From Octopus vulgaris (Eukaryota), in assembly GCA_951406725.2 (NCBI GenBank), contig OX597817.1, positions 29,016,001-29,080,000 of the forward strand: a stretch of DNA of 64,000 nt, in the 5' to 3' direction. This document shows, one piece after another, positions 19,890-20,185 of this stretch. Made by a program: the position numbers and the translations under genes. Under the pieces are notes generated by a model. That model saw nothing but the letters and a program-made list of their open reading frames with translations. It was not told the DNA's origin and did no database searches. Position 1 is the stretch's first letter. Every line of letters starts with the position of its first letter.

Positions 19890-19939
19890 TTTGTCAAAAT
19901 ATTTTCGTCACTAAAATCCGCGACCTGTTCACTGACAAA
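19890..19939 (-). ncRNA. Hammerhead-like motif with GUGAACA (G3-C8) core
   Basis: Minus: tttgtca-GTGAACA-g-gtcgc ggatttta gtgac-GAAA-atat-TT^-tgacaaa; helix II keeps pairing via G-U. Confidence 0.65.
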
Positions 19940-19948
19940 AATCCATGC

Positions 19949-19981
<33 letters not shown>

Positions 19982-20135
19982 TGGAAGGTGTTTATAAGCC
20001 ATTTAAGAAACACACAAAAGCCGATCGATTCACTTCAACATTTAAGTTTAATTTGTCAAATATTTTCGTCGCTTGAAATTAACGTGTAAGTGGCTGAGCA
20101 CTCCACAGACAAAAATCTGAGATGCAGCACGGATT

Positions 20136-20185
20136 TTTGTCAGTGAACAGGTCGCGGATTTTAGCGACGAAAATATTTTGACAAA
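20136..20185 (+). ncRNA. Hammerhead-like motif with GUGAACA (G3-C8) core
   Basis: tttgtca-GTGAACA-g-gtcgc ggatttta gcgac-GAAA-atat-TT^-tgacaaa: 7-bp helix I, 5-bp helix II, palindromic AAAAUAUUUU; predicted cut after U20178. Confidence 0.7.

What the first reader, a model, noticed from the sequence alone, without database searches (positions are those of the whole stretch)
19890..20185. Repeat family with a hammerhead fold whose C3-G8 core pair is swapped to G3-C8 (GUGAACA)
Seen: two complete copies (20136-20185 +, 19890-19939 -) with a 7-bp helix I (UUUGUCA/UGACAAA), a 5-bp helix II (one copy with a pairing-preserving G-U change), GAAA and a palindromic AUAU before UU. The core reads GUGAACA instead of CUGANGA. 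Known: C3-G8 is a Watson-Crick pair in the active hammerhead (Martick & Scott 2006), compensatory swaps can rescue activity, and minimal palindromic-helix-III HHRs typify Penelope-like elements (Cervera & de la Pena 2014). Inference: this is a multicopy natural double-variant ribozyme that standard CUGANGA searches would miss, carried by a non-coding element in the inverted layouts typical of Penelope-driven insertion.
Basis: partly seen in the sequence, partly recalled or inferred. Interest (0 to 1): 0.88.

Follow-up and report, generated by a model that had tools for sequence, protein, structure and literature searches.

The report
Swapped-core hammerhead in Penelope-like retrotransposon
The end repeat of a protein-coding jumping gene with thousands of copies in this animal genome carries a hammerhead-shaped RNA motif in which two paired core letters have traded places (G3-C8 instead of C3-G8); the swap is kept across related families and the motif likely still cuts itself weakly, but cutting is untested.

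Summary
The carrier is not non-coding. The motif sits in the pseudo-LTR/5' leader of an autonomous Neptune/Nematis-type Penelope-like element (RT, CX3CxxC linker, GIY-YIG). 18 of 20 endonuclease-bearing loci carry it downstream; one full element has it at both ends. The genome holds 1,908 exact matches with positions 3, 7 and 8 free: 98 of the first 100 are G3-C8, and none is C3-G8. An older family (65% identical leader) keeps G3-C8 while changing N7, loop II and the helix III palindrome. A sister family (54% protein identity) has C3-G8 at the same place, so this is a true compensatory swap. Against an essential role: about 70 of 85 sampled copies span the predicted cut, only 2 begin near it, and 24 copies with an unpaired G3·G8 still spread. 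In the papers I could search, G3-C8 appears only as an engineered, partly active mutant; the likeliest prior report (Lünse 2017) was not held. This scan already noted G3-C8 hammerheads in this genome and in phages. Verdict: new variant of a known kind; cleavage unshown.

The parts
20136..20185 (+). Minimal type I hammerhead motif, complete copy: helix I 20136-20142/20179-20185; G3 20143 to A9 20149 (C8 20148); extra G 20150; helix II 20151-20155/20164-20168; G12-A15.1 20169-20172; palindrome AAUAUU 20172-20177; U17 20178; predicted cut 20178/20179
   Evidence: Sequence, fold; numbering by comparison with PMC4209133
20119..20326 (+). Short insertion of the element's 5' leader, from the common 5' boundary (about 59 nt before the cut site) to the distal 'tail' end
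   Evidence: Boundaries shared with sampled copies
20235..20326 (+). Start codon and first ~30 codons of the element's ORF (the tail)
   Evidence: Same letters open the ORF in full-length L124; N-terminus 39% identical to the sister ORF, E 9e-29
19834..19949 (-). Inverted partial copy of the leader; holds the second complete hammerhead motif (19890-19939, G-U in helix II)
   Evidence: 97% match to 20126-20241
19950..19981 (.). (TA)n tract between the two inverted copies, the usual target of this family
   Evidence: TA tracts flank most sampled copies
19982..20073 (-). Second inverted partial copy, 5'-truncated inside loop II/helix II; lacks positions 3-9
20074..20111 (.). 38-nt piece of the neighbouring repeat caught at the inversion junction (identical to 20540-20577 and, inverted, 19387-19424)
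40886..41099 (.). Another inverted pair of the same leader (40886-40995 minus, 40993-41099 plus), lacking the 5' half of the hammerhead

Best explanation
The motif is the minimal type I hammerhead of an autonomous Neptune/Nematis-type Penelope-like retrotransposon, with the 3-8 core pair inverted to G3-C8 across the whole lineage, and it likely still cuts after U17 at a low rate that would need a partner copy or the element's protein. SHOWN: it lies in both pseudo-LTRs, 57 nt before the start codon of a ~1,070-aa RT/GIY-YIG ORF; the swap is fixed; a sister family has C3-G8 at the same site; genomic copies end at two tail sites and mostly include the uncut motif. INFERRED: transcription starts about 59 nt before the cut site; the element's RT starts internally at the two tail sites on uncut RNA, giving ~150-210-nt leader copies, often with an inverted partner, in (TA)n. 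C8 would pair with G3 and keep its 2'-OH in place as in engineered C3G/G8C rescue mutants. Two motifs would pair through AAUAUU to form helix III, cutting tandem or read-through RNA to unit length (4,261 nt between the two motifs of L124). Cutting is predicted to be dispensable for making an insertion, which would explain how the lineage crossed an unpaired intermediate to reach G3-C8.
For: Element: GIY-YIG Pfam hits E ~2e-5 above cut-off; 839- and 1,025-aa open frames with YVDD RT motif, DKSG and CX3CxxC; motif downstream of the ORF in 18 of 20 loci and 5 of 5 more; both ends of L124. Swap: 98 of the first 100 of 1,908 matches; 0 C3-G8 among 27 near-matches; G3 68 of 69 and C8 69 of 71 in copies chosen by a downstream anchor; no other letter at 20143 or 20148 above 5% in contigs of four runs with four other organism labels. 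Conservation: variants shared by 10 or more copies at 4 of 8 loop II sites and 0 of 42 core/helix sites, Fisher p 3e-4. Older family keeps G3-C8 with C7, another loop II and the shorter palindrome AAUU. Sister family C3-G8 at the homologous site. 3' ends of 85 of 85 copies fall in two clusters about 60 nt apart, like the two RT start sites of PAc (PMC11167929). C3G/G8C partly rescues a PLE hammerhead in vitro, and that ribozyme needs the element's protein (same paper). U17 and an extra base after A9 occur in PLE minimal hammerheads.
Against: No cleavage data. Only 2 of 85 copies start within 3 nt of the cut, both at inversion junctions, so the genome shows no footprint of cleavage. Core plus helices are not significantly more conserved than flanking leader (0 of 42 vs 8 of 118 sites, p 0.11). 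24 G3·G8 copies against 2 C3·C8, with different flanks in those inspected: a mispaired source was copied repeatedly. The AAUAUU duplex is barely stable by itself (-0.2 kcal/mol), and the predicted minimum-energy dimer swaps helix II strands instead. Covariation rests on one sister family plus one decayed C3 copy; pair counts on 9 sequences are weak (17 of 500 shuffles). The sister motif itself has C at position 9, which suggests relaxed constraint in this clade. Neptune versus Nematis was not resolved by a tree.
Confidence: 0.62

Rival explanations
1. Catalytically dead hammerhead relic, kept as a folded RNA element (binding or folding signal for the RT near the tail sites, or promoter/leader sequence); G3-C8 persists only because the whole leader changes slowly.
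For: Copies come from uncut RNA; G3·G8 source elements spread; structure vs flank p 0.11; PAc hammerhead mutants insert normally in vitro and no reads ended at its cut site (PMC11167929).
Against: Two exact complementary transversions fixed at 3 and 8 are unlikely without selection on the pair. G3-C8, GAAA, UH and a palindrome survive in a family whose leader is only 65% identical and whose N7 and loop II differ.
Confidence: 0.22
2. Active ribozyme whose main job is translational: cutting about 59 nt from the likely capped 5' end and 57 nt before the start codon separates an uncut RNA used as template from a cut RNA used (or destroyed) as message.
For: Position in the 5' leader; about half of copies start at -62 to -55 (45 of 85, approximate binning), often after a G not in the element (9 of 18, three explained by the inverted partner); 5'-UTR type I hammerheads aid cap-independent translation in fungal RNA viruses (PMC13725137, passages).
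Against: No expression, 5'-end or ribosome data; the transcription start is inferred. The same upstream letters also read as a branch point and 3' splice site; no splice joint was seen in contigs (uninformative).
Confidence: 0.12
3. Chance resemblance to a hammerhead in an AT-rich repeat terminus.
For: The reverse strand folds equally well; Rfam finds nothing.
Against: All other core letters, G10.1-C11.1, the extra base and the palindrome are present, at the site where the sister family has a C3-G8 hammerhead.
Confidence: 0.04

Closest known systems
Minimal type I hammerheads of metazoan Penelope-like elements (Cervera and de la Pena 2014, PMC4209133; main text parts 1-2 of 4, supplement file 2 part 1 of 3 and a term search; file 1 not searchable)
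   Same: In both pLTRs; extra base between 9 and 10.1; G10.1-C11.1; tiny palindromic helix III; U17 allowed; many solo and opposite-strand copies.
   Different: G3-C8 instead of C3-G8 (they report U3-A8 as the natural covariation); 7-bp helix I; the extra base is G, while the supplement rows I saw have U or A.
PAc (Poseidon of Anolis carolinensis) hammerhead and tail (Frangieh et al. 2024, PMC11167929; parts 1-2 of 4 read)
   Same: Hammerhead at the pLTR-ORF junction; two 3' ends inside the ORF start; AT-rich targets; uncut RNA as template.
   Different: There C3G/G8C is an engineered, partly active mutant; here it is the wild type. [quoted passage not shown] 2021, PMC8557442; passages and a supplement term search)
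   Same: C-terminal GIY-YIG with two internal cysteines, CX2-5CxxC linker, (TA)n targets, inverted 5'-truncated copies, tail.
   Different: Core swap not mentioned in the passages seen; their descriptor began with 'cuganga'. Clade not fixed by a tree here.
Natural hammerhead core variants (Perreault et al. 2011, PMC3088659; section 8 and passages)
   Same: Compensatory change at the 3-8 pair in nature.
   Different: They found U3-A8; G3-C8 is not in the section read (their supplementary figures S6-S7 not seen).
Dimer-cleaving PLE hammerhead variants (Lünse, Weinberg, Breaker, RNA Biol 14:1499; not held, known only from the reference and summary in PMC6765202)
   Same: Short stem III, PLE-linked, cleave as dimers.
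   Different: Could not check whether their set includes G3-C8.

Membership tests
Penelope-like element, EN+ (C-terminal) | Single ORF with RT followed by GIY-YIG endonuclease | tested here: met
   Open frames of 839 and 1,025 aa with YVDD motif; Pfam GIY-YIG above cut-off. Pfam gave no RT hit; RT is called from motifs and from homologues named RT-domain proteins.
Penelope-like element, EN+ (C-terminal) | Pseudo-LTRs in direct repeat around the ORF | tested here: met
   L124, motifs 4,261 nt apart
Penelope-like element, EN+ (C-terminal) | Tail (two 3' ends) and inverted 5'-truncated copies | tested here: met
   33 and 52 of 85 copies in two end clusters; inverted pairs common
Neptune/Nematis clades | CX2-5CxxC linker, CCHH motif, (TA)n targeting | tested here: met
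Neptune/Nematis clades | RT phylogeny with reference elements | not tested
   No labelled reference sequences were at hand
Minimal type I hammerhead of PLEs | Helix I, helix II with G10.1-C11.1, extra base after A9, palindromic 15.2-16.2 | tested here: met
Minimal type I hammerhead of PLEs | U4 G5 A6, A9, G12 A13 A14, A15.1-U16.1, H17 | tested here: met
Minimal type I hammerhead of PLEs | C3 and G8 by letter | tested here: not met
   G3 and C8; 0 C3-G8 copies
Minimal type I hammerhead of PLEs | Watson-Crick complementarity of positions 3 and 8 | tested here: met
   G-C here, C-G in the sister family
Hammerhead ribozyme (functional) | Self-cleavage 3' of position 17 | not testable with these tools
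   No assay; the indirect genomic footprint is absent (2 of 85 copies)
Non-LTR retrozyme | Non-coding head-to-tail tandem monomers each with a hammerhead | tested here: not met
   Sampled copies are dispersed, solo or inverted, and include the ORF start

The most novel reading that the evidence does not exclude
A whole retrotransposon lineage, in several related animal species, runs on a natural G3-C8 hammerhead that is active with the element's protein and acts as a switch at the 5' end of its RNA (uncut RNA is copied into DNA, cut RNA is translated or discarded). The lineage reached G3-C8 through unpaired intermediates of the kind still visible as G3·G8 copies. Swapped-core hammerheads would then be a sizeable hidden class, including in PLEs reported to lack a ribozyme.
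Probability: 0.2. Interest if true: 0.75.

Novelty: new variant of a known kind. Interest (0 to 1): 0.5.

Why it matters
The C3-G8 pair is a fixed part of hammerhead search patterns. A lineage-wide natural G3-C8 confirms by evolution what crystallography and rescue mutants showed, and means pattern searches undercount ribozymes in Penelope-like elements. The family also offers a natural series (G3-C8 wild type, G3·G8 copies that still spread, a C3-G8 sister) for testing the open question of what PLE hammerheads are for. The chemistry itself is expected, so the surprise is moderate.

Tried and rejected
Rfam at gathering and E-value thresholds: no hammerhead in the window; the control on four loci with C3-G8 motifs also showed none in the 150 of 194 rows shown. 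Pfam and PDB sequence searches with the 839-aa ORF: nothing. Looking for full-length copies by the sequence after the tail: no ORF continuation among 100 of 170 listed. RNA evidence: no RNA holder listed on record; only contigs guessed to be RNA. Laying four of them on L124 gave no GT-AG joint and cannot show ends, strand or level, so expression, splicing and cleavage stay open. Target-site duplications: 2 of 17 solo copies by script; TA flanks hide most. A diverged locus (L139) as DNA query returned only the same lineage. Sequence look-up in earlier findings: nothing. Literature: seven searches found G3-C8/C3G-G8C only as engineered variants (PMC11167929; passages of PMC3884650 and PMC8495972). 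Lünse 2017, Martick and Scott 2006 and Nelson and Uhlenbeck 2008 were not held; the C3-G8 pair is cited through PMC3884650. Rejected: non-coding retrozyme (copies are leader fragments of a coding element); long spliced first exon (copies share nothing upstream of about -60); a cleavage-defined 5' end.

Full report
1. Observation. Reading the plus copy: 7-bp helix I, G3 U4 G5 A6 A7 C8 A9, one unpaired G, a 5-bp helix II opening with G10.1-C11.1, an 8-nt loop, G12 A13 A14, the palindrome AAUAUU (15.1-16.1) and U17. The predicted cut is 20178/20179. It folds as drawn (z -3.4), though the opposite strand scores as well. Cervera and de la Pena list a base between 9 and 10.1, G10.1-C11.1 and a palindromic 15.2-16.2 as traits of Penelope minimal hammerheads (PMC4209133), and UU triplets occur in their alignment.

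2. Copy number and the swap. A 35-nt pattern with positions 3, 7 and 8 free has 1,908 exact matches in G000 and 0 for the reversed control; 98 of the 100 listed are GUGAACA, one has U3, one A8. The C3-G8 version with one mismatch allowed gives 27 matches: none C3-G8, 24 G3·G8, 2 C3·C8, 1 A3·G8. A downstream anchor independent of the core has 5,890 matches. I read 98 copies from the start of one chromosome and dropped 13 rows (a re-amplified composite and one duplicate). Among the remaining 85, G3 is present in 68 of 69 and C8 in 69 of 71 that cover those sites. In contigs of four runs with four other organism labels, no other letter reached 5% at either site.

3. What carries it. Longer copies run about 1 kb upstream through a microsatellite-rich stretch into a GIY-YIG C-terminus. 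Of 20 loci picked by that endonuclease DNA, 18 carry the motif downstream; so do 5 of 5 picked by a protein search. L081 and L123 hold open frames of 839 and 1,025 aa with an RT YVDD motif, DKSG, a CX3CxxC linker and a Pfam GIY-YIG hit. L124 is a full pLTR-ORF-pLTR unit with the motif at both ends, 4,261 nt apart; its ORF (one stop, one frameshift) starts 57 nt after the cut site. The linker and (TA)n targets point to the Neptune/Nematis clades (PMC8557442 passages); I built no tree. The nearest named homologue is an Octopus vulgaris protein (54%), so the host is probably an octopus. The window copies are short insertions of this element's 5' leader and first 30 codons.

4. How the short copies arise. 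All 85 copies end at one of two clusters, +78 to +97 (33) and +139 to +150 (52) from the cut. This matches the two internal RT start sites that define the PLE tail in PAc (PMC11167929). About half start at -62 to -55 (45 of 85, approximate binning), six run further upstream, and 69-71 cover positions 3-9. Only two start within 3 nt of the cut, both at inversion junctions. I infer a transcription start near window 20120 and reverse transcription of uncut RNA. A G foreign to the element precedes 9 of 18 such starts, three of them explained by the inverted partner; this may be a copied cap (recalled mechanism, suggestive only).

5. Is the swap under selection? For: variants shared by 10 or more copies fall on 4 of 8 loop II sites and 0 of 42 core and helix sites (p 3e-4). 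An older family found through its downstream leader (91 of 139 columns identical) has C at 7, a different loop II and the shorter palindrome AAUU, yet keeps G3-C8. Of 36 aligned rows I kept 15 by hand as covering a real core (20 uncovered or misaligned, 1 pattern-selected): position 3 is G in 12 and A in 3; position 8 is C in 8, T in 4, A in 3; none is C3 or G8 (the 15 include one duplicate pair). A sister family with 54% protein identity, a homologous N-terminus (E 9e-29) and a similar leader has a hammerhead at the same place with C3-G8, so 3 and 8 changed together. Against: core plus helices are not significantly more conserved than the rest of the leader (p 0.11); pair counts on nine hand-picked sequences are weak; the sister motif has C9; and G3·G8 copies with different flanks show that a mispaired source still spread.

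6. Mechanism. Most likely (0.62) it is a slow hammerhead that cuts after U17 when two motifs pair through the palindrome or when the element's protein helps. Known basis: the 3-8 pair is Watson-Crick in the active core (PMC3884650 passage); G8C costs 10^5-fold and C3G partly restores it (PMC8495972 passage); in PAc the double mutant partly rescues, cleavage needs the protein, and insertion does not need cleavage; PLE minimal hammerheads cut poorly even as dimers. The likely job is trimming tandem or read-through RNA to unit length. Because insertion does not need it in cis, a lineage could pass through G3·G8 or C3·C8 and fix G3-C8. The palindrome duplex is thermodynamically marginal, and the computed dimer prefers a helix II swap, so help from protein is probably needed. 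Rivals: a dead but structured relic (0.22), a translational switch (0.12; analogy to PMC13725137 passages), chance (0.04).

7. Novelty. Natural U3-A8 is in print (PMC3088659 section 8; PMC4209133). Seven searches and term searches in two supplements showed G3-C8 only as an engineered variant. Lünse et al. 2017, the likeliest prior source, was not held, and other supplements were not seen. This scan has earlier, unchecked notes of G3-C8 hammerheads in this genome (e1-8670522, e1-8672697), in other eukaryotes and in phages. I could not tell whether they concern this family, and I tested the sister-family claim on my own loci. Verdict: a real, new variant of a known kind, in a coding Penelope-like element; activity untested; interest 0.5.

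Noticed in passing
L211-L225 (e.g. L212:1629-1677 and 1772-5701): Young sister family with intact 1,309-aa ORFs; its hammerhead keeps C3-G8 but has C at position 9 and a non-palindromic GAAC in helix III.
   Followed up: partly
L152/L153, L179, L180, L182, L190, L197, L200, L201, L204, L206: Ten places on one chromosome share one inverted pair of this leader with the same flanks: a single insertion re-amplified inside another mobile element.
   Followed up: partly
L029, L030, L062-L070 and other rows: G3·G8 copies outnumber C3·C8 24 to 2 and have different flanks in those inspected; six lie within about 3 Mb on one contig.
   Followed up: partly
window 5849-7593: Fragment of another Neptune-type element (inverted GIY-YIG pieces, ORF start at about 5992 minus) with a decayed hammerhead near 6110 minus reading C3 and A8.
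   Followed up: partly
L124:2200-2222 and equivalents: Just upstream of the common 5' boundary the element reads like a branch point, pyrimidine tract and AG; it also resembles an initiator (recalled consensus). Intron or promoter is unresolved.
   Followed up: partly
L130, L221, L223, L228: Canonical CUGANGA minimal hammerheads of other families lie near these elements.
   Followed up: no
window 19168-19501 and 20462-20791 (also 54006-54389): Inverted pair of a ~330-nt repeat, 95% alike, brackets the finding; a 38-nt piece of it sits inside the inversion junction.
   Followed up: no
window 18271-18327 minus: Weak, partial tRNA match, probably a SINE head.
   Followed up: no
L279-L281: Three copies of the older family's leader at 325-nt spacing, a short tandem array.
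   Followed up: no
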